IMG/VR virus record: IMGVR_UViG_3300032241_001687
Coordinates: 1 to 58,015 of that record
Source of the DNA: a virus
Lineage: Duplodnaviria; Caudoviricetes
Reading direction: 5' to 3' (one strand)
Length of the DNA: 58,015 nucleotides
Below, in pieces: positions 11,511-41,381 of this stretch. The first letter of the stretch is position 1, and the number at the start of each line of letters is the position of its first letter. Position numbers and translations under genes: made by a program. The notes under the pieces were generated by a model. The model was not told where the DNA came from. It searched no databases and saw nothing but the letters and a program-made list of their open reading frames with translations.

Positions 11511-11514
11511 AGTT

Positions 11515-12330: not shown

Positions 12331-12339
12331 AATCTCTAC

Positions 12340-12347: not shown

Positions 12348-12372
12348 ATATTATAATAGAGATTATATATCT

Positions 12373-13487: not shown

Positions 13488-14171
13488 TTAGTTATTTATA
13501 TCAGGAAACAAATGGTGTTTATTAAAAACCTCTACATCTTGTTCATTTAATCCCAAAGACAACATAACTCTTGGTGTATGAGGATTTTTTCGTTGATGTT
13601 CACAGTAATAATTTTGTGCTTTTATAACATCTTCTTTATTTGCTTCATCTTTATGATTAACTATTTTATCTAAGTAATTGTTTAAATTACTTTCTGCCAT
13701 AGTAGTAATTTGTTTTAATTCTTTTTCTTCTTGTATATTACCAGCGGCAATCATTCCTTTACTGAAGATTGCCTTAGCCCAATCTGGTAATTCTCTCTCT
13801 TTACTAGGTTTAAACCATTTGGTTTCGTGAATAAACCAATTTGTTAAATCGTGATTTTTATTTAATAGTGGAGAAAAATCGTGAAAAGCGCCTGTAACTT
13901 TATTTTTACCTGCAATAATATCAAATCCATAAATTGGTCCACTATTTGTTAAACCCGGAAATAAACAAACATGCATCATATAAAGACCTTTTGTATTTCT
14001 TGCATCTACAACATCTATATGAGCTCGTCTTACATAATCATTTTTCCATGTACGATTGACCCAACCTTCTTTATTAAATCGTGTCATACCTTCTTCAAAG
14101 TATTCTACACAATTTTTATTTAATATATTAATTATATTATCTTTACACTGTATAAGATTTTCCCAAATCAT
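13488..14171 (-). CDS. pcyX: Ferredoxin-dependent bilin reductase, PcyX-like
   Basis: Motifs RRAHIDVVD, MMHVCLFP, PIYGFDIIAG, GAFHDFSP, RELPDWAKAIFS and QNYYCEHQRKNPHT; overlaps a heme oxygenase gene. Confidence 0.85.
   Translation of the reverse strand: MIWENLIQCKDNIINILNKNCVEYFEEGMTRFNKEGWVNRTWKNDYVRRAHIDVVDARNTKGLYMMHVCLFPGLTNSGPIYGFDIIAGKNKVTGAFHDFSPLLNKNHDLTNWFIHETKWFKPSKERELPDWAKAIFSKGMIAAGNIQEEKELKQITTMAESNLNNYLDKIVNHKDEANKEDVIKAQNYYCEHQRKNPHTPRVMLSLGLNEQDVEVFNKHHLFPDINN
13493..13500 (-). promoter_or_regulatory. T4-type late promoter TATAAATA for the porin-like gene
   Basis: Exact match at the 3' end of pcyX, about 25 nt upstream of the porin ATG. Confidence 0.6.
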
Positions 14172-14712
14172 TCATTTCCTTAAATAATTCTGTTGCATAA
14201 TCAAAACATAATTTGGCTTCTGCAACTACATTTATTTGATAAGTTTTATAATATTCATTTATAGATTCTCTAATTGATCTTTTTAAATGTTCAGGTTCTA
14301 CAAAAATAAGATAAGAATTTTGTCCTGGGGTTTTTCTTCTTATCATTTGTCCACCATATAAATCACCCATGTGTCTAACATAAACATGAGAAAATAGTTT
14401 TTCTGGATCGTTTTTTATATCGTCTAAATGGTAAAGATAACGTAATGTACTATCAGTAATGTATGGTAATTCGTTTTTTTTCCATAAAGTTTTATAATCA
14501 GATTCTAATTTAGATGTTCGTTCTATATTTGGAAGTTGATTAAAAAGACCATTCTCAATACAATATTTTTCTAATCTAGCGTAACATTGATAAAGATTAA
14601 AAAGATAAATTGAATATAATTCTGGATTTATTGATCCAGACATTAAAACTTTTACAAATTCTTGATTTTCTGCGTTACGATGTTGTTCAAGCGTTTCTGT
14701 TTTGATATCCAT
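14143..14712 (-). CDS. hemO: Heme oxygenase (biliverdin-producing)
   Basis: Proximal His in TLEQHRNAE, distal helix HVYVRHMGDLYGGQ, and C-terminal EAKLCF. Confidence 0.9.
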   Translation of the reverse strand: MDIKTETLEQHRNAENQEFVKVLMSGSINPELYSIYLFNLYQCYARLEKYCIENGLFNQLPNIERTSKLESDYKTLWKKNELPYITDSTLRYLYHLDDIKNDPEKLFSHVYVRHMGDLYGGQMIRRKTPGQNSYLIFVEPEHLKRSIRESINEYYKTYQINVVAEAKLCFDYATELFKEMNDLGKSYTV

Positions 14713-16914: not shown

Positions 16915-16917
16915 TTT

Positions 16918-17331
16918 TTAAAATCCTAAACTTGTTAAATATTCTTGTTTTTTATTTTCAATTTCTGTTAAATCTGCAATTACATTTTTATCACCTGCTG
17001 CCATTAAACTTAAAATATGTAATATAGATTTATATTTTTGATATATTGTTTGTTCAATATTTGTAAATTCTGTTTTAATATTAAAACTATTTTCTTTTAA
17101 AAATTCTAATGTTTTAGCATCATCTTCATTAGAGTTATCTAAAATTCTAACATCTAAATCACCTTGTCCTTCTGTAATTTCTGTTGTTTCTGGATTAAAA
17201 GAAATATAAACATGAGTTTCTGTATTTCCTATAAAAATTAATTTTTGTTCAGAATTTGGATCAATTTGTTTTGGAGATATATAACTATCACCCAATGCTA
17301 TGTTTTTTAATTGAAATATTTTATTTGCCAT
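16918..17331 (-). CDS. Hypothetical protein (137 aa), possible fibre assembly factor
   Basis: AGGAG SD; sits between RCC1 paralogues. No family recognised. Confidence 0.55.
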   Translation of the reverse strand: MANKIFQLKNIALGDSYISPKQIDPNSEQKLIFIGNTETHVYISFNPETTEITEGQGDLDVRILDNSNEDDAKTLEFLKENSFNIKTEFTNIEQTIYQKYKSILHILSLMAAGDKNVIADLTEIENKKQEYLTSLGF

Positions 17332-17350
17332 AATTTTGTTCTCCTTATAT

Positions 17351-20008: not shown

Positions 20009-20017
20009 TTGTTATAT

Positions 20018-30185: not shown

Positions 30186-30410
30186 TTATTTTTTTTCCGT
30201 TGTTTCTGTTTCTTGTACTATTGGTTGTTGATCTGCTAATTTTTCAACAATTTTTCCGTTATAGTATTCTGTCAATACATCAATTTTTTCAATCTCAATT
30301 ACTAATCGAGTTTTATTTTGTTGTATTTCTTGTCTAGCGATGATGTAATTTTTTAGTTCATCACTAAATTTTGTTTCATCGTAGTTTTGTCCGTTAATTG
30401 TAATTGCCAT
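30186..30410 (-). CDS. Small hypothetical coiled-coil protein (74 aa)
   Basis: Strong AAGGAG SD; ITINGQNYD N-terminus followed by a helical segment. Confidence 0.7.
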   Translation of the reverse strand: MAITINGQNYDETKFSDELKNYIIARQEIQQNKTRLVIEIEKIDVLTEYYNGKIVEKLADQQPIVQETETTEKK

Positions 30411-30432: not shown

Positions 30433-30461
30433 ATTATACATTATTATATAAAAAATGTCAA
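30433..30461 (-). promoter_or_regulatory. Perfect sigma70-type promoter TTGACA-N17-TATAAT
   Basis: -35 at 30456-30461 and -10 at 30433-30438 with a 17-nt spacer, directly upstream of the SD of 30186..30410. Confidence 0.8.
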
Positions 30462-30464
30462 TCA

Positions 30465-30472
30465 TATTTATA
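30465..30472 (-). promoter_or_regulatory. T4-type late promoter TATAAATA
   Basis: Exact match just upstream of the sigma70 -35 box. Confidence 0.65.
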
Positions 30473-30477
30473 TAAAA

Positions 30478-30885
30478 TTAAATATCATTTTTGTATAAAA
30501 ATTCTTTTTTGTAGTATTCTTTTATATCTGGAACTATACCTTTTGTTTCATCTAAAGGCATTATTTTATTTAATATATCATCATAAGTTTTTGTATCAGT
30601 ATCATAAGTTTTAAAATATGGATCATTTCCATATAATAAATCTTTATCGTTTAAAAGTTCAAAAAAATCTTCATTAAAATCTTTTGATAACCAATAAGCA
30701 TAACAAATAGCCACAACATAACTTTTAGAAGGATATATAAAAGGCATATCTTTATTATAAAAATATCTAATAGCATTTTCGACTACATCATTAGAAAATT
30801 CCACTGGTAATTTATTAAGATCATCACCATGTTCTGTAATAATTCTATGATATAGCTCTTGTCTGATTTTCCATTCTTTGTGCAT
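30478..30885 (-). CDS. Hypothetical protein, last gene of the radical SAM island (135 aa)
   Basis: Overlaps the upstream rSAM gene; YPSKSY and NDPYF motifs. No family recognised. Confidence 0.6.
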   Translation of the reverse strand: MHKEWKIRQELYHRIITEHGDDLNKLPVEFSNDVVENAIRYFYNKDMPFIYPSKSYVVAICYAYWLSKDFNEDFFELLNDKDLLYGNDPYFKTYDTDTKTYDDILNKIMPLDETKGIVPDIKEYYKKEFLYKNDI

Positions 30886-31789
30886 AGTAATCTAATAATC
30901 CTTTATATCCATTACAACCATTATTCAAATTTTTTACATAACGATAATGTTCTGTTAAACAATGACCAAAATATTTACATTGTTTACATATATCAGAAAC
31001 ATTTTTTATAGGTTCGTTGTTTGCCCATTTTACATATTCTCTAAAACTATTTAATTCTAAAAAATATTCTTTATCTTCTTTATCAAATTCTAATACTGCA
31101 AAATTGCCATTAGGTGTTATATAAACATGATTATTTGAAAATGCATTATATTGTTTATTTAAACTTTTAATTATTTTACTTTCATTTATAAAATCAAATT
31201 TTTTTTCTATTTTACTATCTAACCAACGTTGAACAAATATTTCAAAATCTTTATGAGTAACGTTATAAGAGTTTGATTGATTTATAGAATACGGTTTAAT
31301 CTCTACACTTTCTATACTTGAACATAAATTTAATTTTTGTATCATATCATCTACATTCATCTGAATAACTTTTTGACTTGCAAGAATTAATACTGCAATA
31401 GGCACTTTACTTTGTAACATATTATTAAAAACTAAATCAGATTTTTCTCTTGCTTCAAAATCATAACTGACACTTAAATAACAATCTTTTTCAAAAAAAC
31501 CTTCATGTAACATTGAAAAATTTGTTATAATATTAATTTTACCAGTATAATATTTTTTAATTACATTTTTTAAATTTAAAAAATAATCTTTTTTTAATGC
31601 ACCTATTTCACCTCCATATAAATCAATCCATTCTATATTTCTAACTTTACTAACTTCTTGCAATCGTATATCTAATATAGGTATTGGTATTTTTTTTGTA
31701 TCACTTAATTGATTATCAGTAAGATAACAAAAGTTACATCTAAAGTTACAAAAGTAACTTGGATTAATTGAAAGAGTTATATTATTCAT
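30845..31789 (-). CDS. Radical SAM protein with reduced SPASM/Twitch-like C-terminus (rSAM-4)
   Basis: CNFRCNFC (CX3CX2C), YGGE, and C-terminal CKQCKYFGHC...GC. Probable start MNNITLS at 31789, coupled to the upstream stop. Confidence 0.85.
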   Translation of the reverse strand: MNNITLSINPSYFCNFRCNFCYLTDNQLSDTKKIPIPILDIRLQEVSKVRNIEWIDLYGGEIGALKKDYFLNLKNVIKKYYTGKINIITNFSMLHEGFFEKDCYLSVSYDFEAREKSDLVFNNMLQSKVPIAVLILASQKVIQMNVDDMIQKLNLCSSIESVEIKPYSINQSNSYNVTHKDFEIFVQRWLDSKIEKKFDFINESKIIKSLNKQYNAFSNNHVYITPNGNFAVLEFDKEDKEYFLELNSFREYVKWANNEPIKNVSDICKQCKYFGHCLTEHYRYVKNLNNGCNGYKGLLDYYAQRMENQTRAIS

Positions 31790-32363
31790 CTTTATATAAA
31801 AATAAATCAACAGGCATTGCAAGTCTTAATTTACCATAGTAAATATCTACACTGTGATAAACAAAACTTGGAAATATAATTATATCACCTGTTTGAGGAG
31901 TAAAATGTAATGATGAAAACCAGTTTTTAAATCTATCTTTTTCATAACCTCTATTTGCATTAAATCTAGGATCTTGCATAATTAATGCACCTCCTGAAGT
32001 TTTTTCTTCTGCCATTAGATAAAATACTGCACTTATTTGAGAACCAGAATGATTATGTTTTGCCATAGAATAACCTGTACCCCAACCTGTTATCCATGCT
32101 TTAAGTTTATATTTACAAGAACTTATATCAAAATTTAAACTTGAATTTAAATAATTATTAAAAGAGGGTAAAACAATTTTATTTTTAAAATCATCTAAAT
32201 TTTTATCGTCAAATAAATTTAAAACAATAGATTGATCAGACTGTTTATTTGCATCACTACAATTTGCAATTAAATATTCTGTAGTTTTATTTAATAAATT
32301 TATATCTTTAATTGTGTCTTTAAGTATATCTGTAGACCAATAATGATTTAAACCTTCTTTCAT
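31782..32363 (-). CDS. 2OG-Fe(II) oxygenase-like protein (HxH type)
   Basis: KHNHSGSQISAVFYL, DPR, FPSFVYHSV and a distal Arg in LRLAM. Confidence 0.8.
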   Translation of the reverse strand: MKEGLNHYWSTDILKDTIKDINLLNKTTEYLIANCSDANKQSDQSIVLNLFDDKNLDDFKNKIVLPSFNNYLNSSLNFDISSCKYKLKAWITGWGTGYSMAKHNHSGSQISAVFYLMAEEKTSGGALIMQDPRFNANRGYEKDRFKNWFSSLHFTPQTGDIIIFPSFVYHSVDIYYGKLRLAMPVDLFLYKDE

Positions 32364-32881
32364 TGTGTTAAGCTTTCATTTATATAATAATTAAAACTTG
32401 CAACACGTCTAGGTAATTTAAAATTTAATGGTGTTACAATATGTTCAAATTTTAAACTTTGATTCATAATAATAATATCGTGTTGTTGTGGATAATAAGA
32501 ATTAATTAATTCTTTTGTTTGAGTATTTCTAAATTGAATTGCACCACCAATATCTTTATCCATTGTATCAAAATAAACAAGAATACAAAGATTTGGGCCT
32601 TCAACTAAATCATTATGCCAAACTAATGTTGCATCGTCCATACCATTAACTAAATCAATTTTGTCTACACTTTTATAATTTGGATCTATTTGTTTAACAT
32701 AAGTATTACTTAAATATTCTTGTACTAGTTTTAGTTGATCAATAAGTTTATTGTCTTTAATTGCAAGTTGCAAACCCATATGACATGCATCATACCATTT
32801 AACTCTATAGATATCTATAAAATTTAAAGGTACAACATCATTTATTTTATAATGACCATTTGTCAAAAATTCATTTAACAT
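32360..32881 (-). CDS. 2OG-Fe(II) oxygenase (prolyl-hydroxylase-like)
   Basis: WHND (HxD), GGAIQF, FEHIVT and RRVASF. Confidence 0.8.
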   Translation of the reverse strand: MLNEFLTNGHYKINDVVPLNFIDIYRVKWYDACHMGLQLAIKDNKLIDQLKLVQEYLSNTYVKQIDPNYKSVDKIDLVNGMDDATLVWHNDLVEGPNLCILVYFDTMDKDIGGAIQFRNTQTKELINSYYPQQHDIIIMNQSLKFEHIVTPLNFKLPRRVASFNYYINESLTQ

Positions 32882-33978
32882 AATACACTTTCATCTATAT
32901 AAGGTGTTACTTCAATATTTAGTTCGTTTGCTTTAAGTATATCTGGAGCTATAGTTTTCATCAATTTACAATGTTCTTCTACTACATTATGTTTTTTAAA
33001 ATCTTTTATAGTTTTTCTGCACCCATTACATATTTGAAACATAGGACAAGTCCAACATGCATTTTTCATAGATGTTATATTTAAATCTTCTCTTAATGGT
33101 GTAAAAAATTCACCTTTCATTTCTCTTTCAAAATCTATTGATTTATCTTTATCGTCACCAAATGCACCACAAGAATAATAATCACCACTAGGATTTAATG
33201 CACGAATACCTGCATCACAATTACGATTTTGAGGACAAGTAGTTCCATTACCTCGCAATCTTTGTATCATTTGTTTTGTATTAAATTCCCATGATGTAAG
33301 ACCACGTTTCCATATTTCTACATAAATTTTATATATTTTACTTAAAAGATAAGGTTTATCTTGATCGCCACTTGACATAGCATAATTTAATTTACATTCT
33401 ACACCTGTTTTATTATTTCTTGCAAAATTGTGTAAAGTGCCTTCGGGTATAACATCTTCACTCATACGTTTTGCCAACTCTACGTTTTTTATTGCATCTT
33501 TTTCATTTTCAGGTACGATGACCGATATAAAATCTGGTCTATATCCACAATATTCTAACATTGCATCAGAACATTTCCAAAAATCTTTTTCCGTAAATTC
33601 AGTATAATCACCTTTTAATCTACCACCACCATATTGAAAAGAAGTTGTAACTCCAACTCTTTCATTGTTAAATAAATCACTCCACATTTCTGGTTTTTTA
33701 TAAAAAGGCCAAAGATTAGTTGTCAATGCAATAGAAGTATCATAATCATGTTCATCTAACCATCTAATTATAGTCCAATAATATTCTGGATCCATCATTA
33801 AAGGATCTCCACCATTTACAATAATTGTTTTTGTATTTGGAAATCTTTTTAAAAATGTAAATATTTGTTCATGTTCTAATAAGTCTTTTTTATGTTTTGC
33901 AATTTTTGTAGAAGAACAAAACGTACATTTAAAATTACACAATTCAGTAGGTTTTATAATTAAGTCCATCTTATCCAA
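32875..33978 (-). CDS. Radical SAM/SPASM protein (rSAM-3)
   Basis: IIKPTELCNFKCTFC, NGGDP, TCPQNRNC...YSC and CWTCPMFQICNGC...HC. Confidence 0.9.
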   Translation of the reverse strand: MDKMDLIIKPTELCNFKCTFCSSTKIAKHKKDLLEHEQIFTFLKRFPNTKTIIVNGGDPLMMDPEYYWTIIRWLDEHDYDTSIALTTNLWPFYKKPEMWSDLFNNERVGVTTSFQYGGGRLKGDYTEFTEKDFWKCSDAMLEYCGYRPDFISVIVPENEKDAIKNVELAKRMSEDVIPEGTLHNFARNNKTGVECKLNYAMSSGDQDKPYLLSKIYKIYVEIWKRGLTSWEFNTKQMIQRLRGNGTTCPQNRNCDAGIRALNPSGDYYSCGAFGDDKDKSIDFEREMKGEFFTPLREDLNITSMKNACWTCPMFQICNGCRKTIKDFKKHNVVEEHCKLMKTIAPDILKANELNIEVTPYIDESVLC

Positions 33979-34493
33979 TAGTTACCATTTCTTTTAAAAC
34001 CAAATTGTTGCATCAATTCTTTATGATAAGGTTCATGTTGTATTTTTTTTTGATTCATAATTAAATGTAAATGTTCAAAATAAGAACCTGCAGGGACTAT
34101 AATTTTTTTATTACCAAACAGTTTAATTATATCACTCCACATTTTTCTAAGTAATTGACGTATTTTTATTTTACTCCTTGACTTTAATACACCAGAATAT
34201 TTAACACTTCCTATTATAATTTCATTATCATAGATATGTATCATTGCAACACCTTTTTCTAATTTCCAATCATCGTCACAATTAATCCACATATCTTCAC
34301 CTTTTGTTTTTTTTACTTTTTCATATATATCAGGATCAGTTTCTTTTGTACCCCACCATATAAACATATGTGCTTGTTTATCGCATATTCTAGGCACAAA
34401 TGGTGATCTAAGTGGTAATGTGTCTAATTTAACATCTACCCCATAAGGCAATTCAAGTTTAGCGAGCGATGTAGTTTTTTTGTACTCGTACAT
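33960..34493 (-). CDS. Hypothetical protein of the radical SAM island
   Basis: ORF between two rSAM genes. Start MYEYKK at 34493 is preferred over 34559 (100-nt overlap). The C-terminal FGFKR is weakly GNAT-like. Confidence 0.55.
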   Translation of the reverse strand: MYEYKKTTSLAKLELPYGVDVKLDTLPLRSPFVPRICDKQAHMFIWWGTKETDPDIYEKVKKTKGEDMWINCDDDWKLEKGVAMIHIYDNEIIIGSVKYSGVLKSRSKIKIRQLLRKMWSDIIKLFGNKKIIVPAGSYFEHLHLIMNQKKIQHEPYHKELMQQFGFKRNGNYWIRWT

Positions 34494-35511
34494 CTTCGAT
34501 ATATTTGTGCGTAAGTTTATAGACACACTCATCGAGTTCCTCTCTATATTTGTAATCATGGTTCATAAAACAACCTAGTGTACATCTATCTAAAAACTCA
34601 CACGATGCACAGTTGTATTTTTCTAAAAAACTATTTTCAATAATACTATTATCTTTTTTCTTTATAGGAGATTTATACATACTTAAAGATTTTTTATCTT
34701 GTACAAGATTACCACACTGACATAATGTACCATCTGCAAGAACTAATTTACTTACTCTACATGATGCATAATTGCGTTTATTAAATATCCAGTCTTTTAT
34801 AGGGTGTACATTTGGATATTTGTCAACACATAATTTAAAAAATTTTAATAATAATTCGTCTGATGGCATATTATGTTCTGCATGTTCATCTGGCATATAA
34901 TAATCAAAAAAAATATATTTACCTTTATTGTAAAGATAATCAAAATATTCATCACCATGTTTTAAGTAATATTCTATATTTGGTTTTGTAAGTAAACATG
35001 AAAAACATGTAATACGATTATCAAAATAATCAACATTCATTTTAAATATTTCAAATTGTGATTTATTAAAACGACCTCTAGGATCATATGAAGTAGTTAA
35101 TCTTGCAGATATATTATTGTCTTTTGAATACTGTAACAAATCTTCTATTTGTTCAATACCATTTCTATCAGTAACTAAGTTTGTGACCCAATTCAAAGAA
35201 TATTTTTTATTATATTTTTTTGCTATTTTTGATATACCTAAAGATAATTGTTTGTATGCTTCGTTGATTTCTTTTGTATAGATTGCAGGTGCAAAAACTT
35301 CACCACCCATTAAATTTAAAGTAATTGAATTTTTATTTTCTTTACTTACAAATTTATCAATAGGTTCTAGTTTATTTAATATTGTATCTAAACCTATTTT
35401 ATCTGAATGATTTTGCCAACAAAAAGAGCAACTTAAATTGCAGTATTCAAATAAATGAATTGTATATTCTTGTTCAGGATCACGTTTAGGATCAATCAAA
35501 AATTCACGCAT
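34459..35511 (-). CDS. Radical SAM/SPASM protein (rSAM-2)
   Basis: FEYCNLSCSFC, MGGE, ASC...LCQC and CASCEFLDRCTLGC...EC. Confidence 0.9.
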   Translation of the reverse strand: MREFLIDPKRDPEQEYTIHLFEYCNLSCSFCWQNHSDKIGLDTILNKLEPIDKFVSKENKNSITLNLMGGEVFAPAIYTKEINEAYKQLSLGISKIAKKYNKKYSLNWVTNLVTDRNGIEQIEDLLQYSKDNNISARLTTSYDPRGRFNKSQFEIFKMNVDYFDNRITCFSCLLTKPNIEYYLKHGDEYFDYLYNKGKYIFFDYYMPDEHAEHNMPSDELLLKFFKLCVDKYPNVHPIKDWIFNKRNYASCRVSKLVLADGTLCQCGNLVQDKKSLSMYKSPIKKKDNSIIENSFLEKYNCASCEFLDRCTLGCFMNHDYKYREELDECVYKLTHKYIEDVRVQKNYIAR

Positions 35512-35522
35512 AAAATAAAATC

Positions 35523-36632
35523 CTATAATAATTTAAATTTGGAAAGCGTGTCTATATCGTTATTTCTTTTAAAATTTAAAACGTTTTGTATAAAAACATA
35601 ATTTACATTTTCACTATCAGATTTAGGAACTAAACAAGTATCAAATGGATTTGCAATAACAAAATATAAAAAATTATCTAAATCAGTATCTGAAAGAGAT
35701 GTTTGTGCAGCTAATGGTAAATAATCAAATAGTTTAAATATATTTCTATCTATTTCCATAGCTTCAACATTTGCAAAAATGTTTATAATTGTATTTTTTA
35801 ATCCATTTAATTTATCTGCAGATAAACCTACTAAATTTGGTAATGTTAATATACCAGTAGAAAATTTAGATGTCCAAATAGAAGGATCTGCGTATGATGC
35901 CAATGATGCAACATTTTTAATTGGATTTACGTCTGTTAAATCCAAATCTGCATCAGTAAAATTTAATGCAGATTGAAATAATTTATTATTTAAATTATAT
36001 AAAACCATTTCTTTATTTTCTGCAAAAATATCTTTAAACCATCTATATAAAAACAAATGAACTGTAGATTTTAATTGTGTTTTATAATTTGTAGAACCAC
36101 TAAAATAATCACTTAACATATATTCAAATGATAACGATAATGATAAATTTTTAATAGTTTGTCTATCATCTGCAGAAATTGTAATTGCATTAAATGCGGC
36201 AGCAATAATATCACTTGAAATATTTGTATTAATTTGAACTGGATTTGTAGGTTGTACAGTTTGTTCAACACTATTTCTTAGTAGTCTTTCTTTATATATT
36301 GTTATGTTAAATAAATTTTGAAATCCAGATAAATCTAAATTAGGTAATATTATTTTAAACCATTTTGTAAAAAATTTTAAATATGCATCTGTATCACAAT
36401 AAATTATTATTTTTTTATTACTATTTTTATTATAAGTATTTAAAGAAGTAATTAATGTTAAAAAATCAATATCTTCAATTTTTTTTGCAAATTGTATTAA
36501 TTTGCCGCTTGTAACTTTTTGTAAATTGTCTAATATATCAACACCATTTATATTAGATATAACAACTCTATCAAAATTTAAAGATATTTTATCATCAAAA
36601 TCTAAATATGTTTTGTTAAAAAGATGCAACAT
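35523..36632 (-). CDS. Hypothetical protein of the radical SAM island (369 aa)
   Basis: Long ORF overlapping the upstream gene; KIIIYCD motif. No family recognised. Confidence 0.65.
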   Translation of the reverse strand: MLHLFNKTYLDFDDKISLNFDRVVISNINGVDILDNLQKVTSGKLIQFAKKIEDIDFLTLITSLNTYNKNSNKKIIIYCDTDAYLKFFTKWFKIILPNLDLSGFQNLFNITIYKERLLRNSVEQTVQPTNPVQINTNISSDIIAAAFNAITISADDRQTIKNLSLSLSFEYMLSDYFSGSTNYKTQLKSTVHLFLYRWFKDIFAENKEMVLYNLNNKLFQSALNFTDADLDLTDVNPIKNVASLASYADPSIWTSKFSTGILTLPNLVGLSADKLNGLKNTIINIFANVEAMEIDRNIFKLFDYLPLAAQTSLSDTDLDNFLYFVIANPFDTCLVPKSDSENVNYVFIQNVLNFKRNNDIDTLSKFKLL

Positions 36633-37308
36633 TTTCTATAAATTCCTTATTTTTTATTTTAGCTTCTATAAATTCATTACCTTTTCCAGCTGCAATTGCC
36701 CAAGTTATTAAAAACATAGGATTTTTATCAACCGCCCAATAACTATACATATTTTTACCTTTAAACATATAATCATCAAAATAATGTGTATAAAATTTTA
36801 ATTTACTAATTATTTTATTATAAAATAAATAAAATCTTTCATTTTTTAATAAACTTATAAAATTAATACCAAAAATTTCATTTGTGTCATTTTTTTCAAA
36901 ACTTTTTGCATAATTTCTAAATTCTTCACTATTAATCATATACATATTATAAACTATTAAACTTTCTAATTTATTACACCATTTATCAATAATTTTTTTA
37001 TTATTATCTATAAAATCATCAAAAATTTTTATTTCATTTAATTTTTTATAACGTAATAAAATATCTATTGCAATATTTTCTAATGCTGATATATTAACCA
37101 ATGATGTAGAATTAAAATATTCGTTTATTAAATCTATATCAATATTTATAACATCACAAGGTAAATCTAAATTGCTTAAATAAGTAATAAAATTTTTTCC
37201 TTTTAATTCACTTTTTTCATAATCAATTTTATAAAATATATTTTTATCTGTAAAATATTTTTTTAAATTATCTACTGAAATAGGTACTGTTGTTTCTATT
37301 ATATTCAT
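36616..37308 (-). CDS. Hypothetical protein of the radical SAM island (230 aa)
   Basis: Start coupled to the stop of the CHxS protein (TAATG). No family recognised. Confidence 0.65.
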   Translation of the reverse strand: MNIIETTVPISVDNLKKYFTDKNIFYKIDYEKSELKGKNFITYLSNLDLPCDVINIDIDLINEYFNSTSLVNISALENIAIDILLRYKKLNEIKIFDDFIDNNKKIIDKWCNKLESLIVYNMYMINSEEFRNYAKSFEKNDTNEIFGINFISLLKNERFYLFYNKIISKLKFYTHYFDDYMFKGKNMYSYWAVDKNPMFLITWAIAAGKGNEFIEAKIKNKEFIENVASF

Positions 37309-37883
37309 TATCTTCTACCTCTCGAATTATGACAAGAACTATGACAACTTGCATGACATATGTTAACTGTTATAGTAGTTATATTAGCTCTTTGATTATT
37401 ATATTCGGTTTGCATATTTGTAAAAAATGTTTCTAAACCCGAAGCAGTTATTGTATTACCACTACTTACATTAGAATTATTTACCGAATTTAAAGTTTGT
37501 CTGTAACTTGTATTCATATACGCAACAGATGTGCTATTAAATATTATTCCAGGTGAACCATAACTTCCTGTATTACCTCCACCACCTGTAACGTTTAATA
37601 TTGCATTTAAATTTCTTATATTTGTATAAAGTTGAGTTTCCGCAAGTAAAGCAGATACTATATTTGCAGCAGTTATATTAGGAAGTCCTGGTTGTTGTAT
37701 AGAAGAACCTGTTGCCGTTACTGTTGTTCCTGAAGTAGTGCCTCCAAATTGAGATGAATCAAATTGTGAAAAAGGAAGAACATCTGTACCCCATACAATA
37801 TTTGCATTTGCAGTAGCAGTTACAAAATCTGCAAATCTGTTCACAATATTTTGCGAAGTAATAGGATTATTTAACGTTGTCAT
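37308..37883 (-). CDS. Putative substrate/precursor: virion-like protein with C-terminal (CHxS)3-RGRR
   Basis: The T/S/N/G-rich body has no Cys or His; all three Cys and three His fall in the last 16 aa (CHASCHSSCHNSRGRR). It overlaps the upstream rSAM/SPASM gene. Confidence 0.7.
   Translation of the reverse strand: MTTLNNPITSQNIVNRFADFVTATANANIVWGTDVLPFSQFDSSQFGGTTSGTTVTATGSSIQQPGLPNITAANIVSALLAETQLYTNIRNLNAILNVTGGGGNTGSYGSPGIIFNSTSVAYMNTSYRQTLNSVNNSNVSSGNTITASGLETFFTNMQTEYNNQRANITTITVNICHASCHSSCHNSRGRR
37323..37358 (-). repeat. Three 12-bp units encoding C-H-x-S
   Basis: TGTCAT recurs on the minus strand at 37353-37358, 37341-37346 and 37329-37334. Confidence 0.85.
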
Positions 37884-38904
37884 ATTTTATATTACTTTTT
37901 AATTCCTTCATTAAACTTTTTGGTGCGCCACATATATTATCTTGCCAAGCAAGTTGATGACAATCACCTCCACAAAACTCAAAAACTTCGCAAGAAAAAC
38001 ATAAAGGATTTCTTGCACTTTCACAAGCAATGTTTTCTAATCTTATAGGACTATTTATAACTGTTTGTATATCATCATTTATAGTACCAAAAGAAAACTC
38101 GGGTGCAGAATTAGGACAACCTGATATAGTACCATCTGCGTTTATTGTAAATATTTTCTGTTCACAGTCTCTACAAAATGTACCACCTTTTAAAAAACCT
38201 GTTTCAAATTTATTGTATATTACTTCTAACGTTTCATTTTCAAACCAATTTCTACAATTAAATTCTTTAGATTGATGGTGCATTTTTAAAAACCATTTGT
38301 CTTGTTCAATATTATTAGGAAATATTTCAGGATGTAATTTTGCATTACCATTACCGGTTAATCGTTCAAATGATATTTCTTGTACACCTAATTCTTTAAT
38401 CCATTTTAATAAATCAATAGGTTCCATGGCAATAGTATCTTTAGTAACACTTATAAACAATTTGATTGTAACGCCTTTATTTAATAAATCTTTTACATTT
38501 TTTTCCCATAAATTATATTGTGCATCATTTTCAAAACGTATTTTTGGATCCCAACTTGTACCCATACGATTGTTTAATGGCCCTTTTATAAATTCGTAAT
38601 GTTCGTCTTTTAATTTAAAAACAAGATTTGAAGTTATACCCCATGACATATTAGGCCATAAATCTTTACATTCTTCATATACTTTATTCATATGAGATAC
38701 AGGCGCTAAGAATGGTTCGCCACCATGAAATTCTAAATGAATAGTATCTTCATCTTTATTAAAATATTGTCTAAATTTTTTTATAAAATCTATTGTTTTA
38801 AAATGATCAAAGTAAATTTTTTTACCATTGATACCATTTGTAAAACAATGTTTACAATTTAGTTGACAAGTTTCAGTTGTTTTTAAATAAAATATCCAGT
38901 TCAT
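37867..38904 (-). CDS. Radical SAM/SPASM peptide-maturase-like protein (rSAM-1)
   Basis: KTTETCQLNCKHC, FHGGEP, CRDC...INADGTISGC and CFSCEVFEFCGGDC...IC. Confidence 0.92.
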   Translation of the reverse strand: MNWIFYLKTTETCQLNCKHCFTNGINGKKIYFDHFKTIDFIKKFRQYFNKDEDTIHLEFHGGEPFLAPVSHMNKVYEECKDLWPNMSWGITSNLVFKLKDEHYEFIKGPLNNRMGTSWDPKIRFENDAQYNLWEKNVKDLLNKGVTIKLFISVTKDTIAMEPIDLLKWIKELGVQEISFERLTGNGNAKLHPEIFPNNIEQDKWFLKMHHQSKEFNCRNWFENETLEVIYNKFETGFLKGGTFCRDCEQKIFTINADGTISGCPNSAPEFSFGTINDDIQTVINSPIRLENIACESARNPLCFSCEVFEFCGGDCHQLAWQDNICGAPKSLMKELKSNIKYDNVK

Positions 38905-39350
38905 TCATCATATCCTATACTTAATGCCCAGGTATCAGGTAAACTATTTACTTGATGTGGAGTTCCTTTAGGTATTGATATACCTTGACATTCTTTAATT
39001 AAAATTGGTTCATCATCTATAAAAACATTTTTTGCACCTTTTATTACATATAAAAAAACATTTACATCATCAGTATGTTTTGGAAAAGAAAAACCACCTA
39101 ATTGATTAAAAAATAATTGTACACTATTTACTTTAATTTGTAACTGTATATCTTTTAATAAAGATTTATGATAATTTTTATTATCTAAACCTTCAACTTT
39201 TATATTATTATATTTTTTAAAATTTTCAAGCCACTTACGATAAGACATAACATCTTTAACTCGAAAATCTTTTAAATTTTCATCTATATAAACAAGATCA
39301 TTATTTTCGTATCGTTCAACTGAAAAAATTTCATCAAATAAATTAGACAT
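38901..39350 (-). CDS. JmjC/cupin-fold oxygenase-like protein (149 aa)
   Basis: FPKHTDDVNVFLYVIKGAK and IPKGTPHQV (HxD...H triad), resembling the Cupin_4/RoxA core. Confidence 0.72.
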   Translation of the reverse strand: MSNLFDEIFSVERYENNDLVYIDENLKDFRVKDVMSYRKWLENFKKYNNIKVEGLDNKNYHKSLLKDIQLQIKVNSVQLFFNQLGGFSFPKHTDDVNVFLYVIKGAKNVFIDDEPILIKECQGISIPKGTPHQVNSLPDTWALSIGYDE

Positions 39351-39963
39351 TTATATTAATTGTATGTAACTGTAGATTTACTACTAACGTTATTCTTTCT
39401 TCATCTCCACTGTAAGGAGTTACTTCGTGCCATACAATATTAGGACATACAATTAATCTATTTTTTTTAGTTTCTACTTTAAAGTATTTTGGATTAGAAT
39501 ATTCTTCTGTATAATCAAATGTAGGATCTATTAAAACTAACTGACCACCATTTTTTTTGTTATCTATATCATTTAAATAAAATATAGAAAATGCAGTAAT
39601 ATATGCATGAGTATGAGCACCTTTATAATCACCTTTTCTCATAAAAGGAAATTTACCAAAAGATAAAGCTAAATTTTTTGATATTTCATCTTTTGTTAAT
39701 TTATTATTATCATAAGATTGTGCCAATTCATAAAATCCATCAATAAACATATCTTTTAATTGTTTAATTTCAGAATATTTTGAAATATTTTCTTGTGTAA
39801 AAAAAGGTTTTGTTTGATTGCCTGCCTCAGAATAATTACCATCAACTTCTAAAAGTCTTGAAGAAAAATGAGAACGTACTATTGATTGGACAGTGTTATT
39901 CCAATCATCAGATAAATTAAAATCTTTTATTAATACATTTGTTTTGAAGGGTGTATAAATCAT
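39343..39963 (-). CDS. 2OG-Fe(II) oxygenase-like protein (HxH type)
   Basis: AHTHAYITAFSIFYL, GGQLVLIDP, VWHEVTPY and ERITLVVN. Confidence 0.8.
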   Translation of the reverse strand: MIYTPFKTNVLIKDFNLSDDWNNTVQSIVRSHFSSRLLEVDGNYSEAGNQTKPFFTQENISKYSEIKQLKDMFIDGFYELAQSYDNNKLTKDEISKNLALSFGKFPFMRKGDYKGAHTHAYITAFSIFYLNDIDNKKNGGQLVLIDPTFDYTEEYSNPKYFKVETKKNRLIVCPNIVWHEVTPYSGDEERITLVVNLQLHTININV

Positions 39964-39983: not shown

Positions 39984-41381
39984 TTAAAGTATGATTGCTT
40001 GTATAATATTTGATGTACCTGTTGATGTATTACTATCTTCTAATGCAATTGCAAATATTTTTTCTTTCCAAACTTCACCTACTTTACATGCAAGTCCATT
40101 ATTATCTGCGATTAATTCATCACCTTTTGAAATAAATCCATTTACTTTAACTTTTACTTTACCTTTTAATGCAATTGGTTGACCTGTACCTTTGGCGTTC
40201 ATTAAATATGCAGGATTTTCTGAAATAACACCTATTGCTCTTTTACCAATGGAACTTGCAGTTACTTCTGCAGAACCACCTACCATCATTACTGTTCCAA
40301 CTTCATATTGTTGATCGGTAGCATAAATTTCAGCTAAATCGGCATAATCTGCACTTAATGATGTTGTATTTAAAATATTTAAATTTGGATTATAAGTTAA
40401 ATCTATATCTGTTCTTAATGCTTGATTTCCTGAATTACTAGCAACAAAAGGAACATAATAATTATTGTTATCTATATTTTGAGGTGTTACTGTTACCGTT
40501 GAAGCAATACTTGCAGTTCCAGTAAAACTAGTTGCAGTTACACTATTAAATGTAATAGAATCTCCTGCTACATTTAATTTTGAAGCTCTTATAGTATTAT
40601 CAGCAATATTACTATTTGTAATTGTACTAACTGCTATCATATTACCAGTAACAGTTCCACCATCAGAATTAGTTATAAGTGTACCTGTTATATTTGGTAT
40701 TGTAATTGTTCTATTTGCAGTAGGATCAGCAACTGTTAATGTTGTTTTATAAGCATCGTTTGTCGCACCTTCAAATTGAATATTTCCTGCAGTAGACAAA
40801 TATAAATTACCACCTAATGTAGTTAATCCTGTAACTCCCAAAGTTCCTGCAATAGATGTGTTACCAGTTGAACCTGCAACTGTAAATTTATTTGTATTAA
40901 TAGTTATATTTCCAATAGATGTATAAGAAGTTGCAGTTAGAGCACCTACGCCTAAAGTACCTGATGTAATTAAATTATTATTAGAAAATGAAATATTTCC
41001 ACCAGAAGAAGAAATACTTCCGCTAGATAAAGATAAATTAGAAACATTTAATTGCGTAGTAAGTGTAACTGTATTAGGTAAACCTATTGTTACAGTAGGC
41101 CCTGAACCAATAGAAACGGTAGTTTGATTATTAGTTCCATTAATAACAAGATTTGTTCCTGGGCCAATTAATTGAGTGTTATTTAAAGAATCTTTAATAT
41201 TAAAAGCAAAAGTACGTGCAACAAATTGAGAAATTTGAACAATAGCACCCATAACAGAGGTTGCATTTAATCCAGTTGTTGTTAATAAAGCGGGATCTCC
41301 AAAATCATTTGCTGTTAAGCTATTAAGCTTAATTCGCATTACATCTAGTGTATCTGTTGTATTAATTACTGTGACTGCCAT
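39984..41381 (-). CDS. Tail-fibre-like protein with C-terminal intramolecular-chaperone-like domain (465 aa)
   Basis: TDTLDVMRIKLN N-terminus, FEGATND..TTLTVADPTA.RTITIP motif, and C-terminal ADYADLAEIY...IGVISENPAYLMN...IALKGKV. Confidence 0.72.
   Translation of the reverse strand: MAVTVINTTDTLDVMRIKLNSLTANDFGDPALLTTTGLNATSVMGAIVQISQFVARTFAFNIKDSLNNTQLIGPGTNLVINGTNNQTTVSIGSGPTVTIGLPNTVTLTTQLNVSNLSLSSGSISSSGGNISFSNNNLITSGTLGVGALTATSYTSIGNITINTNKFTVAGSTGNTSIAGTLGVTGLTTLGGNLYLSTAGNIQFEGATNDAYKTTLTVADPTANRTITIPNITGTLITNSDGGTVTGNMIAVSTITNSNIADNTIRASKLNVAGDSITFNSVTATSFTGTASIASTVTVTPQNIDNNNYYVPFVASNSGNQALRTDIDLTYNPNLNILNTTSLSADYADLAEIYATDQQYEVGTVMMVGGSAEVTASSIGKRAIGVISENPAYLMNAKGTGQPIALKGKVKVKVNGFISKGDELIADNNGLACKVGEVWKEKIFAIALEDSNTSTGTSNIIQAIIL

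What the first reader, a model, noticed from the sequence alone, without database searches (positions are those of the whole stretch)
30478..39963. Phage-encoded RiPP-like protein-modification island inside the virion gene module
Seen: 13 same-strand genes, nearly all overlapping their neighbours, inserted between fibre genes. They comprise four CX3CX2C radical SAM proteins with Cys-rich C-terminal domains, three 2OG-Fe(II) oxygenases, one JmjC/cupin, four unknown proteins and one protein with a Cys/His-repeat tail. Known: rSAM/SPASM enzymes are mostly peptide/protein maturases (sacti-, ranthi- and triceptide synthases, anSME). Inference: this is a dedicated late-expressed pathway that cross-links and hydroxylates a phage protein, probably a virion component. 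That would be RiPP chemistry applied to a phage particle. I know of no characterised example.
Basis: partly seen in the sequence, partly recalled or inferred. Interest (0 to 1): 0.93.

Follow-up and report, generated by a model that had tools for sequence, protein, structure and literature searches.

The report
Phage radical-SAM module for a CHxS-tailed protein
A T4-like phage carries, inside its tail-fibre genes, a conserved set of four radical SAM enzymes and oxygenases that almost certainly modify the invariant Cys-His-rich tail of one co-encoded protein; the same module is widespread in environmental phages and has not been studied.

Summary
In detail: there are 13 minus-strand genes at 30478-39963. 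They comprise four CX3CX2C radical SAM proteins, a cupin, three 2OG-oxygenase-like proteins, four unknowns, and a 191-aa protein ending in CHAS-CHSS-CHNS-RGRR.

The island is not a one-off insertion.
- The same module, in the same order, lies in the baseplate/fibre region of the best 80 IMG/VR loci (of 166 relatives found).
- It also occurs in 12 cultured jumbo phages, including Atu_ph07, RSL2 and pPa_SNUABM_DT01.
- A protein ending in CHxx-CHxx-CHxx-RxRR follows radical SAM enzyme A in 75 of 80 loci; the other 5 contigs end before that position.
- The tail gene usually has its own TATAAATA late-promoter motif (69 of 75 loci).

The four enzymes resemble peptide and protein maturases most, but only remotely. 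None reaches a curated family threshold.

The tail protein's body is a confidently modelled globular domain with no match among solved structures; the tail itself is modelled as disordered.

Best reading: a late-expressed, RiPP-like maturation system acting on the tail of this protein. Virion incorporation is plausible, from gene context, fusions to a glycine-rich domain that matches a tail-category family, and a hint from the Atu_ph07 virion proteome, but it is unproven. No chemistry has been shown.

The closest characterised analogue is the bacterial HXS defence system.

The parts
39343..39963 (-). w01: 2OG-Fe(II) oxygenase (206 aa), a variable accessory gene
   Evidence: PF13759 E 9.5e-10 and PF13640 above cut-off. 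A homologue was seen in only 27 of 82 loci.
38901..39350 (-). w02: cupin / JmjC-like Fe(II) oxygenase (149 aa), always directly upstream of radical SAM enzyme A
   Evidence: Cupin_2 scores 27.3 vs 27.2. H92-x-D94...H132 is invariant and K107 is at least 90% conserved in 24 sequences. Present in 81 of 82 loci.
37867..38904 (-). w03: radical SAM/SPASM enzyme A (345 aa)
   Evidence: CX3CX2C at residues 13-20. SPASM passes Pfam and TIGR04085 cut-offs. Best full-length similarity is to PapB, E 4e-13, 49 bits vs a cut-off of 340. It is 51% and 47% identical to Atu_ph07 gp171 and RSL2 ORF067.
38052..38059 (-). TATAAATA late-promoter motif inside the enzyme A gene, 176 nt (motif start to start codon) upstream of the tail gene
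   Evidence: The motif lies at 163-203 nt in relatives, invariant while neighbouring synonymous sites vary.
37308..37883 (-). w04: predicted substrate protein (191 aa), a globular domain (residues 1-175) plus a C-terminal tail of CHAS-CHSS-CHNS-RGRR (176-191)
   Evidence: The tail motif is present in 75 of 80 IMG/VR loci directly after enzyme A. 139 of the 150 best representatives carry it. The AF2 model has pLDDT 87.7 overall and about 51 for the tail. There is no PDB fold match.
36616..37308 (-). w05: conserved unknown protein (230 aa), always next to w04
   Evidence: phrog_20767 E 1.7e-59, function unknown. Present in 76 of 82 loci. The AF2 model has pLDDT 80 and is mostly helical with a small N-terminal alpha/beta part. 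No family assignment.
35523..36632 (-). w06: unknown protein (369 aa)
   Evidence: No Pfam, PHROG or PDB match. Homologues in 62 of 82 loci, very divergent (median identity 30%).
34459..35511 (-). w07: radical SAM enzyme B (350 aa), SPASM-like
   Evidence: CX3CX2C plus invariant C251, C301, C304, C310, C314 and C329 in 28 sequences. 33% and 32% identical to Atu_ph07 and RSL2 orthologues. No solved relative.
33960..34559 (-). w08: unknown protein (199 aa) that travels with one subtype of enzyme B
   Evidence: Present in 30 of 35 loci where enzyme B is at least 50% identical to the window's, and in 0 of 32 where it is below 50%. No family match.
32875..33978 (-). w09: radical SAM/SPASM enzyme C (367 aa), the most conserved enzyme in the module
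   Evidence: Radical_SAM is above the Pfam cut-off. Best match is DynA, E 3.3e-11 over the full length, 43 bits vs a cut-off of 450. 63% and 54% identical to Atu_ph07 and RSL2 orthologues. Eight invariant C-terminal Cys.
32360..32881 (-). w10: 2OG-Fe(II) oxygenase-like protein (173 aa), variable accessory gene
   Evidence: PF13640 E 2.5e-4, below cut-off. Homologues in 50 of 82 loci, often in several copies.
31782..32363 (-). w11: 2OG-Fe(II) oxygenase (193 aa), variable accessory gene
   Evidence: PF13759 E 4.7e-13. Homologues in 33 of 82 loci.
30845..31822 (-). w12: radical SAM enzyme D (325 aa) with a 4-Cys C-terminal motif
   Evidence: CX3CX2C plus invariant C279, C282, C288 and C303 in 26 sequences. 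51% and 40% identical to Atu_ph07 and RSL2 orthologues.
30478..30885 (-). w13: unknown protein (135 aa) that follows enzyme D
   Evidence: phrog_20737 E 2.7e-44, function unknown. Found in 52 of 82 loci, against 57 with enzyme D.
39984..41381 (-). u1: fibre-like protein (465 aa) directly upstream, with an autoproteolytic chaperone-like C-terminus. It is conserved context, not shown to be part of the pathway.
   Evidence: Peptidase_G2 E 2.3e-4, below cut-off. PHROG tail-fibre families. A homologue precedes the module in 76 of 82 loci.

Best explanation
The 13 genes form a late-expressed protein-maturation module that belongs to the fibre/baseplate gene block of a large group of phages.

Proposed substrate: the 191-aa protein w04 (37308-37883). 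It is a globular alpha/beta domain carrying a flexible 16-residue C-terminal tail, CHxx-CHxx-CHxx-RxRR.

Proposed chemistry (inferred, not shown):
- Four non-redundant radical SAM enzymes (A-C SPASM-type, D with a single 4-Cys auxiliary motif) each abstract hydrogen atoms from tail residues and install covalent changes.
- The likeliest changes are Cys thioether links and/or His-x-Ser three-residue cyclophane links, one set per repeat.
- The always-present cupin with an HxD...H iron site, and a variable number of 2OG oxygenases, add hydroxylations. The invariant Arg residues are one candidate target.
- w05, w06, w08 and w13 are accessory or recognition proteins of unknown fold families.

No protease is encoded in the module, so the modified tail probably stays attached to the protein. 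The mature protein is then probably used in or on the virion, near the fibres; I give that last step about 50%.

Shown here: gene content, orthology, strict co-occurrence, invariance of the tail, promoter motifs and fold novelty. Inferred: every chemical step, the substrate assignment, and the final location.
For: Co-occurrence
- A protein ending in CHxx-CHxx-CHxx-RxRR lies directly after enzyme A in 75 of the 80 IMG/VR loci kept from 166 relatives. The other 5 contigs end within 300 nt of enzyme A.
- The same holds in Atu_ph07, RSL2 and pPa_SNUABM_DT01.
- Enzymes A and C occur in exactly the same 15 phage records, which are 12 phages.
- Each of the four enzymes has its own orthologue, in the same order, in Atu_ph07 and RSL2.

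Conservation pattern
- The body of w04 has a median identity of 49% to the window's protein and varies from 140 to 296 aa in length. Its Cys, His and Arg tail positions do not vary in the 71 unique sequences selected by the motif.
- Without selecting by motif, 139 of the 150 best profile hits end in the motif.
- 56 of 71 unique proteins have no Cys outside the tail.

Enzyme resemblance
- Best NCBIfam matches are peptide or protein maturases: PapB, anSME, DynA, HxsB/HxsC, the CXXX-repeat family and cyclophane synthases.

A peptide-sized relative
- In an Oligoflexia MAG contig with cellular-looking neighbours (AhpF-like protein, ABC-2 transporter), the same position holds a 104-aa ORF without the globular domain. 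It ends in a variant Cys-rich tail with RSRR.

Expression
- All 16 TATAAATA motifs in the window are on the coding strand.
- 69 of 75 loci have one within 300 nt upstream of the tail gene, against a background of 0.05 per 300 nt.
- Within the enzyme A gene the motif is kept at synonymous positions.

Virion link
- The conserved order is gp8-like, 2078-aa protein, 77-aa protein, fibre-like u1, the module, then fibre-like genes.
- Ten longer relatives fuse an N-terminal Gly_rich_2 domain to the w04 domain and tail. That domain matches PHROG 863, annotated 'tail fiber assembly'.
- The Atu_ph07 paper places most virion proteins in 'CDS 170-215'. RefSeq gp170 is the tail protein (PMC6102473 section 29).

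Structure
- The tail is modelled as disordered (pLDDT about 51) on a confident domain (mean pLDDT 87.7), so it would be accessible to enzymes.
Against: - No enzyme reaches the curated cut-off of any named maturase family, for example 49 bits vs 340 for PapB. Solved relatives are very remote or absent. The chemistry cannot therefore be read from homology.
- No RiPP recognition element or protease was detected.
- The w04 domain is globular, not fibre-like, and matches no solved virion protein.
- The Atu_ph07 proteome table could not be read. The paper's numbering may be shifted by one against RefSeq, and a cluster range does not prove that gp170 itself was detected.
- Loci are phylogenetically related, so the co-occurrence and promoter counts are not independent events.
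- A tail of Cys and His could also be a metal site.
- Radical SAM enzymes are oxygen-sensitive, whereas the cupin and 2OG enzymes need O2. How both work in the same cell is not explained.
Confidence: 0.62

Rival explanations
1. The module makes a non-structural effector. The modified w04, or a peptide cleaved from it by a host or unrecognised protease, acts inside the infected cell or after lysis. It could serve in superinfection exclusion, counter-defence or as an antimicrobial, by analogy with bacterial HXS, where a radical-SAM-matured HxS-repeat protein blocks phage DNA entry.
For: - HXS shows that radical-SAM-matured repeat proteins can act in phage-host conflict (PMC13128918, abstract and sections 9-10 read).
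- The w04 domain is globular rather than fibre-like and has no virion-protein fold match.
- A peptide-sized version stands next to an ABC-2 transporter in a cellular-looking contig.
- The basic RxRR end recalls the basic HxS repeats, which were reported to bind DNA.
Against: - In the T4-like loci listed the module sits inside the baseplate/fibre block and has late-promoter motifs.
- No signal peptide, transporter or protease was recognised in the phage module.
- Some relatives are fused to a Gly-rich domain that matches a tail-category PHROG.
- The enzymes are not members of the HxsB or HxsC families: 33 vs 370 bits and 31 vs 268 bits.
Confidence: 0.2
2. The Cys/His tail is a metal or Fe-S binding site rather than a substrate. 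In this reading w04 is a carrier or scaffold, for example feeding clusters to the four cluster-rich enzymes, and the enzymes act on something else such as a fibre protein, a nucleotide or a small molecule.
For: - Three Cys-His pairs at a flexible terminus resemble metal ligands.
- The enzymes need up to three [4Fe-4S] clusters each.
- Marine T4-like genomes rich in radical SAM genes also carry Fe-S assembly genes (PMC5332604, passage read).
- Weak N-terminal similarity to viperin and MoaA exists.
Against: - No other conserved candidate substrate with a repeat or Cys motif was found in the window.
- Viperin and MoaA matches mostly cover only the SAM-cluster region. The one longer match, enzyme D to pVip, scores only 26 bits.
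- Natural variants lose a central Cys, a whole repeat, or His residues. A fixed metal site would tolerate this poorly.
- The adjacency of enzyme gene and tail gene, and the precursor-like 104-aa form, match known maturase-substrate pairs.
Confidence: 0.1
3. The genes are unrelated auxiliary metabolic genes that merely sit together in a variable region, with no common pathway.
For: - The G+C content is lower than that of the flanks.
- 2OG oxygenases vary in number between loci.
- Jumbo-phage papers list these genes only as miscellaneous enzymes (PMC8066314, PMC11898562, passages read).
Against: - The core (cupin, enzyme A, tail protein, w05, enzymes B, C and D) keeps its order from T4-like aquatic phages to phiKZ-like and Atu_ph07-like jumbo phages.
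- Enzymes A and C are found in identical sets of phage records.
Confidence: 0.03

Closest known systems
HXS antiphage system (HxsA-D) of Pseudomonadota (PMC13128918)
   Same: - More than one radical SAM enzyme plus small accessory protein(s) mature a full-size protein, not a short peptide.
- That protein carries short His-x-Ser-containing repeats rich in basic residues. H-x-S is embedded in each CHxS unit here.
- Enzymes A and C give weak hits to HxsB and HxsC respectively.
   Different: - This module is phage-encoded and sits in the virion gene block.
- It has four enzymes plus a cupin and 2OG oxygenases.
- It has three Cys-led repeats at the extreme C-terminus followed by RxRR.
- No HxsA or HxsD match, and no Pfam match for a peptidoglycan-binding domain in w04; a signal peptide was not specifically tested.
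- Scores are far below the Hxs family cut-offs.
Ranthipeptide/sactipeptide-type SPASM maturases (PapB, CXXX-repeat family TIGR04115) and anSME
   Same: - CX3CX2C plus a SPASM domain.
- Best full-length similarity of enzyme A is to PapB and anSME.
- The substrate has regularly spaced Cys (C-x3-C-x3-C).
   Different: - Scores are 36-49 bits against cut-offs of 340-350.
- The substrate is a tail on a 175-aa folded domain of novel fold.
- No fused recognition domain: the CX3CX2C motif starts within the first 30 residues in all four enzymes.
Three-residue cyclophane (triceptide) radical SAM synthases, including His-linking HtkB/HaaB (PMC11499958, listing abstract only)
   Same: - Aromatic-x-x motifs repeated in the core. 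His-x-Ser fits the aromatic-X-X pattern.
- Weak hits to GrrM/OscB, XyeB, YhhB, FxsB and AmcB.
   Different: - All hits are far below cut-offs.
- Each repeat also has an invariant Cys, which triceptides do not need.
- The chemistry is untested.
Unannotated radical SAM clusters of jumbo phages (RSL2/RSF1, FLC6, SURPRISE13, Atu_ph07, pPa_SNUABM_DT01)
   Same: True orthologous modules, with the same tail protein and the same gene order.
   Different: In print, the passages I read only list them as cupin, Fe-S oxidoreductase, radical SAM and 2OG genes (PMC8066314, PMC11898562, PMC5468394). Those passages make no link to a substrate or a pathway.

Membership tests
Radical SAM superfamily | CX3CX2C motif binding the SAM-cleaving [4Fe-4S] cluster | tested here: met
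   Present near the N-terminus of all four proteins and invariant in alignments of 3-28 relatives. The Pfam gathering score is reached only by 32875-33978.
SPASM-domain maturases | C-terminal 7-Cys SPASM motif, with the domain model above its cut-off | tested here: inconclusive
   Enzyme A passes Pfam SPASM (25.6 vs 21.5) and TIGR04085 (35.9 vs 27). Enzymes B and C keep 6-8 invariant C-terminal Cys, but their domain scores are below cut-off (19.2 and 20.7 vs 27). Enzyme D has only 4 Cys.
Any named RiPP maturase family (PapB, DynA, DarE, XyeB, GrrM, FxsB, CXXX-repeat, anSME) | Whole-protein score above the curated NCBIfam cut-off | tested here: not met
   The best is PapB at 49.3 bits vs 340. 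DynA scores 42.8 vs 450, anSME 40.5 vs 349, and TIGR04115 36.2 vs 350.
RiPP-type pathway in the general sense | A ribosomal precursor encoded beside the maturase, carrying a conserved core motif | tested here: met
   75 of 80 loci, with the other 5 truncated. 139 of the 150 best representatives carry the motif.
RiPP-type pathway in the general sense | Leader-recognition element (RRE) and a leader protease | tested here: not met
   No PqqD/RRE or peptidase family was found in any of the 13 proteins. Divergent forms cannot be excluded.
HXS system | [quoted passage not shown] | tested here: not met
   HxsB scores 33.1 vs 370 and HxsC 30.7 vs 267.9. The tail protein has no NCBIfam hit even at E 10, and no HxsD hit appeared. 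Only the H-x-S spacing inside the repeats is shared.
Pfam PF27846 'tSAM_targ_Cxxx_rpt' (name seen only in the Atlas output) | Match of w04 to the family model | not testable with these tools
   The family is carried by 19% of one look-alike cluster at score 0.80, which is a lead only. The model is not in the local Pfam copy.
JmjC/cupin Fe(II)/2OG oxygenases | HxD/E...H iron triad within a double-stranded beta-helix | tested here: met
   H92, D94 and H132 are invariant and K107 is at least 90% conserved in 24 sequences. Cupin_2 scores 27.3 vs 27.2. JmjC_2 is below cut-off at 18.6 vs 22.
T4-type late genes | TATAAATA late-promoter core upstream, on the coding strand | tested here: met
   16 of 16 motifs in the window are on the minus strand. 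The total number is not above chance (shuffle mean 21). 69 of 75 loci have one within 300 nt upstream of the tail gene. The consensus itself is recalled, not taken from a call.
Virion structural protein | Detection in purified particles, or homology or fold match to a known virion protein | not testable with these tools
   No PDB fold match. BFVD matches are all uncharacterised phage proteins. The Atu_ph07 virion proteome table is a supplement that I could not open; the main text gives only the range 'CDS 170-215'.

The most novel reading that the evidence does not exclude
RiPP chemistry is applied to a phage particle. The mature w04 would be a fibre- or baseplate-associated protein whose exposed C-terminus is converted by four radical SAM enzymes and an iron oxygenase into a rigid, polycyclic, cationic knob. 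This would be a post-translationally built ligand or metal site that takes part in adsorption or genome delivery. It would be used by hundreds of lineages of aquatic T4-like phages and by jumbo phages of Agrobacterium, Ralstonia, Burkholderia and Pseudomonas, and it would be evolutionarily linked to a bacterial peptide pathway.
Probability: 0.35. Interest if true: 0.92.

Novelty: new variant of a known kind. Interest (0 to 1): 0.8.

Why it matters
- Radical-SAM maturation is known for peptides and for a few cellular proteins. In my searches of the held library I found no study of a phage-encoded pathway of this kind, nor of any virion protein modified in this way.
- The family is large: 761 clusters at 50% identity for the tail protein. 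It is also present in cultured phages, so the hypothesis can be tested directly by mass spectrometry.
- It offers four uncharacterised radical SAM families with a defined, tiny and invariant substrate. That is attractive for enzymology.
- If the product is on the particle, it would add a new layer to how phages build host-recognition or injection devices.
- If the product is not on the particle, it is a phage counterpart of the newly described HXS-type effectors.

Tried and rejected
**Searches that found nothing**
- megablast of the island against phage records: no match.
- tblastn of the tail protein against phage records: no match at E 1e-3, although homologues exist. The protein is short and only the tail is conserved.
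- PDB profile searches for w06, w13 and w08: nothing meaningful.
- NCBIfam at E 10 on tail fragments and variants: nothing.
- PADLOC: only generic viperin-like similarity to the radical SAM core. It is N-terminal for enzymes A-C and a longer 26-bit match for enzyme D.
- Atlas search for w05: no usable hit.
- BLASTP between the Gly-rich part of fusion protein P0121 and the window's own Gly-rich protein (57025-57891): no similarity. I therefore do not claim these two are related.

**Other leads set aside**
- Campylobacter phages CP220 and CPt10 have 11-12 radical SAM genes (PMC2853527, passages read). They did not appear among the relatives of enzymes A or C, so I treat them as a different set.
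- No RNA holder was listed for the island. I did not lay any reads.

**Considered and rejected**
- A recent horizontal insertion, because of conserved synteny.
- Membership in the HXS or CXXX-repeat families, because the cut-offs are not met.

**Literature caveat**
- The Atu_ph07 supplement (Table S5) and the RSL2/RSF1 Virology paper (not held) may already say whether the tail protein is in virions. I could not see either.

Full report
**What is there**

The window is a 58-kb contig, and it is also the whole 'genome' held. It comes from a T4-like phage with about 30% G+C. It encodes portal, terminase, gp25-, gp6-, gp7- and gp8-like baseplate proteins and several fibre proteins, all on the minus strand.

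Eleven of the twelve junctions overlap.

- All four radical SAM proteins have CX3CX2C.
- Only enzyme A (37867-38904) passes the SPASM models.
- One of the three 2OG oxygenases (32360-32881) is a sub-threshold match.
- The cupin just reaches Cupin_2, and its JmjC match is sub-threshold.

The 191-aa protein w04 (37308-37883) ends in CHAS-CHSS-CHNS-RGRR. These are its only Cys and His residues.

**The module is conserved, not an insertion**

Enzyme A has 43-51% identical homologues in 15 phage records, which are 12 jumbo phages of Agrobacterium, Sinorhizobium, Ralstonia, Burkholderia and Pseudomonas. Enzyme C finds exactly the same 15 records.

In Atu_ph07 and RSL2 the neighbourhood is: cupin, enzyme A, a protein ending in CHSS-CHxS-CHxS-RxRR, a w05 homologue, then orthologues of enzymes B, C and D in the same order. 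pPa_SNUABM_DT01 has cupin, enzyme A, a 178-aa protein with the same tail, and six more radical SAM genes.

A scan of IMG/VR found 166 relatives of enzyme A. I examined the 80 best:
- 64 have an ORF directly after enzyme A that matches a strict tail pattern.
- 11 more match a looser pattern, and all 11 read CHxx-CHxx-CHxx-RxRR.
- The remaining 5 contigs stop within 300 nt of enzyme A.

BLASTP of all ORFs of the 82 loci against the window's proteins gives one conserved order: gp8-like, 2078-aa protein, 77-aa protein, fibre-like u1, cupin, enzyme A, tail protein, w05, w06, enzyme B, (w08), enzyme C, (2OG genes), enzyme D, w13, then the downstream fibre-related genes.

Counts out of 82 loci, many of them truncated:

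| Gene | Loci |
|---|---|
| enzyme A | 82 |
| cupin | 81 |
| tail protein | 80 |
| w05 | 76 |
| u1 | 76 |
| enzyme B | 67 |
| enzyme C | 64 |
| w06 | 62 |
| enzyme D | 57 |
| w13 | 52 |
| w10 | 50 |
| w11 | 33 |
| w08 | 30 |
| w01 | 27 |

So the core is cupin, A, tail protein, w05, B, C, D and w13. The 2OG oxygenases are variable.

The w06/B/w08 segment comes in two subtypes. w08 is present in 30 of 35 loci whose enzyme B is at least 50% identical to the window's, and in 0 of 32 of the others.

The lower G+C of the island is real, but it does not mark a recent arrival.

**The tail protein family**

A word-index search found 700 clusters at 90% identity with E <= 0.001. None has a name or a Pfam domain.

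A profile search of 1.84 billion representatives found 761 clusters at 50% identity, 421 of them at E <= 1e-10. Of the 150 best, 139 end in CHxx-CHxx-CHxx-RxRR. The other 11 are small variants (an extra Gly before RxRR, a lost central Cys, a lost third repeat) or truncated sequences.

Among 71 unique tail proteins from the loci, which were selected by the motif:
- The fourth position of each repeat is Ser, Asn or Ala.
- The residue before the first Cys is nearly always Val or Ile.
- 56 have no Cys elsewhere.

The body is much less conserved. Median identity to the window's protein is 49%. It is lower than enzymes A, C and D in 49 of 57 loci, and lengths run from 140 to 296 aa.

AlphaFold2 with a 36-sequence alignment gives a confident compact alpha/beta domain (mean pLDDT 87.7, pTM 0.80). 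The last 16 residues have pLDDT about 51.

Foldseek finds no PDB chain at E <= 0.001; the best E is 2.2 and the TM-score is below 0.2. In BFVD it finds only uncharacterised phage proteins, including the Atu_ph07 homologue. The domain therefore has no recognisable relative among solved structures, and it is not fibre-like.

**Enzymes**

Each enzyme is a family of its own.

| Enzyme | Best NCBIfam matches |
|---|---|
| A | PapB (E 4e-13, full length), anSME, an uncharacterised peptide-modifying family, the CXXX-repeat maturase family, DynA, HxsB |
| C | DynA (E 3.3e-11, full length), anSME, HxsC (N-terminal only) |
| B and D | mostly the N-terminal cluster region of viperin, PapB, DarW |

All scores are roughly 6- to 30-fold below the curated cut-offs. 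They support 'works like a peptide/protein maturase', not membership in any family.

PDB profile searches give only remote hits: an unnamed radical SAM protein 8vpo, ChlB, the tetraether lipid synthase, MoaA, and 5v1q (recalled to be SuiB). Enzyme B gives none.

In all four enzymes the CX3CX2C motif starts within the first 30 residues, so there is no N-terminal recognition domain.

The cupin keeps H92-x-D94...H132 invariant, and K107 in at least 90% of 24 sequences including the jumbo-phage ones. This is the signature of an active Fe(II) oxygenase.

**Expression**

The T4 late-promoter core TATAAATA (recalled consensus) occurs 16 times in the window, every time on the coding strand. Many copies lie some 10-90 nt upstream of a start codon. 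The total number is not above the shuffle expectation.

None lies at the start of the island. The nearest upstream motif precedes the gp8-like gene (49331), so the enzymes are probably read through from the baseplate/fibre transcript.

One motif lies inside the enzyme A gene, 176 nt (motif start to start codon) upstream of the tail gene (38052-38059).

Across relatives, 69 of 75 loci have the motif within 300 nt upstream of the tail gene, against a background of 0.05 per 300 nt on that strand:
- It lies either at 163-203 nt, inside the enzyme A gene.
- Or it lies at 27-48 nt, in an intergenic spacer.
- In four further loci (L023-L026) the motif sits at the same codons, but the tail gene is split and lies farther away.

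Inside enzyme A the eight bases cover codons for x-Ile-Asn-x. They are invariant while neighbouring synonymous sites vary.

ATA and AAT are common codons here (52% and 76%), and the loci are related. This is therefore suggestive rather than proof of selection at the DNA level. I read it as a dedicated late promoter that raises expression of the substrate above that of the enzymes.

**Is it cellular as well?**

In one genome per species of the GTDB collection, only five contigs carry a close relative of enzyme A (39-67% identity). The next best is 27%.
- One is a fully syntenic T4-like contig binned into a 'Rickettsiales' MAG.
- Two are short contigs.
- One, a 160-kb contig of a Bdellovibrionota MAG, has two tandem tail genes.
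- One, a 97-kb contig of an Oligoflexia MAG, has cellular-looking neighbours: an AhpF-like reductase, an ABC-2 transporter and more radical SAM genes. At the position of w04 it has a 104-aa ORF without the globular domain, ending in a variant Cys-rich tail with RSRR.

If real, that last locus is a conventional leader-plus-core precursor. It would tie the phage module to a bacterial peptide pathway.

**Virion or not**

For:
- The invariant position in the baseplate/fibre block and the late-promoter motifs.
- Ten longer relatives (451-461 aa) place a Gly_rich_2 domain in front of the w04 domain and tail. That domain matches PHROG 863, 'tail fiber assembly'.
- The Atu_ph07 paper identified 131 virion proteins by ESI-MS/MS and says most are encoded in 'CDS 31-76, CDS 170-215 and CDS 284-329' (PMC6102473, section 29 read). 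In RefSeq numbering, gp170 is the tail protein, and gp169 to gp164 (w05 and enzymes B-D) fall outside the range.

Against, or uncertain:
- The paper's numbers may be shifted by one against RefSeq. It calls gp182 the T4-core baseplate wedge subunit, whereas RefSeq annotates gp181 as such.
- A range is not a detection, and the table is a supplement I could not open.
- The domain is globular and has no known virion relative.

I put virion incorporation at about one half.

**Mechanism proposed**

Late in infection, w04 is made in excess from its own promoter. Its disordered tail is presented to four different radical SAM enzymes, possibly with the help of w05, w08 and w13, whose roles are unknown.

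By analogy with the nearest families, the enzymes would form Cys thioether bridges and/or His-to-Ser(i+2) cyclophane links. Radical SAM cyclophane synthases acting on His are described in PMC11499958, of which I saw only the listing abstract. The iron oxygenases would then hydroxylate the product.

The result would be a compact, cross-linked, strongly basic C-terminal structure that stays on the protein. All of this chemistry is inference.

**Known or new**

- The jumbo-phage papers only list the genes (PMC8066314, PMC11898562, PMC5468394; passages read).
- A comparative survey of jumbo phages has no occurrence of 'radical SAM' (PMC7824862, term search).
- Marine T4-like genomes with up to 12 radical SAM genes have been noted, without a function (PMC5332604, passage read).
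- The closest characterised system is bacterial HXS (PMC13128918; abstract and sections 9-10 read). There, HxsB and HxsC with HxsD mature HxsA, a protein with five HxS repeats, with a +8 Da change at an SHRSS motif.
- A 2026 paper on protein thioether cross-links made by a SPASM enzyme in methanogens (PMC13692751) was seen only in a search listing.
- The Atlas output names a Pfam 38.1 family, PF27846 'tSAM_targ_Cxxx_rpt', on a minority of one look-alike cluster. I could not test whether w04 belongs to it. If it does, database curators have already flagged such proteins as radical SAM targets.
- My searches for a published study of this phage module found none.

The search of earlier findings, complex prediction and the last fold search.

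**Verdict**

The RiPP-like reading is well supported by comparative genomics. The 'virion' part is open. The finding is a new, widespread phage variant of radical-SAM protein maturation, and it is worth experiments.

Noticed in passing
window 13488-14712 (- strand): A heme oxygenase (14143-14712) and a ferredoxin-dependent bilin reductase (13488-14171) sit between structural genes. I recall this pair as known auxiliary genes of marine phages.
   Followed up: no
window 57025-57891 (- strand): A 288-aa glycine-rich protein (ALK_LTK_GRD E 3.4e-18; Gly_rich_2 sub-threshold) lies next to the gp25-like baseplate gene. It explains the local G+C jump to 0.41. BLASTP shows no similarity to the Gly-rich domain fused to w04 relatives.
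   Followed up: partly
window 14737-22741 (- strand): Three large proteins (725, 885 and 907 aa) match PHROGs annotated 'regulator of chromosome condensation'. They are probably beta-propeller repeat fibre or decoration proteins.
   Followed up: no
window 30433-30472 (- strand): Right after the last island gene there is a perfect 12-of-12 sigma-70-like promoter (TTGACA, 17 nt, TATAAT). Immediately upstream of it is a TATAAATA motif. Both precede the 74-aa gene at 30186-30410.
   Followed up: no
L085:11075-11389 (Oligoflexia MAG contig): A 104-aa ORF stands at the position of the tail protein. It lacks the globular domain and has a variant Cys-rich, RSRR-ended tail. It sits among at least seven radical SAM genes and next to an ABC-2 transporter and an AhpF-like gene. 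This is a possible cellular peptide version of the pathway.
   Followed up: partly
L087:8946-10134 (Bdellovibrionota MAG contig): Two tandem tail-protein genes (201 and 212 aa) carry identical tails. A B12-binding radical SAM gene lies nearby.
   Followed up: partly
L023-L026, about 11000-12400: The tail protein appears as two consecutive ORFs: an N-terminal part, then a 140-aa part carrying the tail. This may be a split or frameshifted gene in this sub-lineage.
   Followed up: no
loci L003-L082, segment homologous to window 33960-36632: The w06 / enzyme B / w08 segment exists in two sharply different subtypes that are exchanged between otherwise similar modules. This suggests recombination inside the module.
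   Followed up: partly
L002:15042-16191 (RSL2): In RSL2-like phages, a dihydrofolate reductase gene and a second DHFR-like ORF are inserted between enzymes B and C of the module.
   Followed up: no
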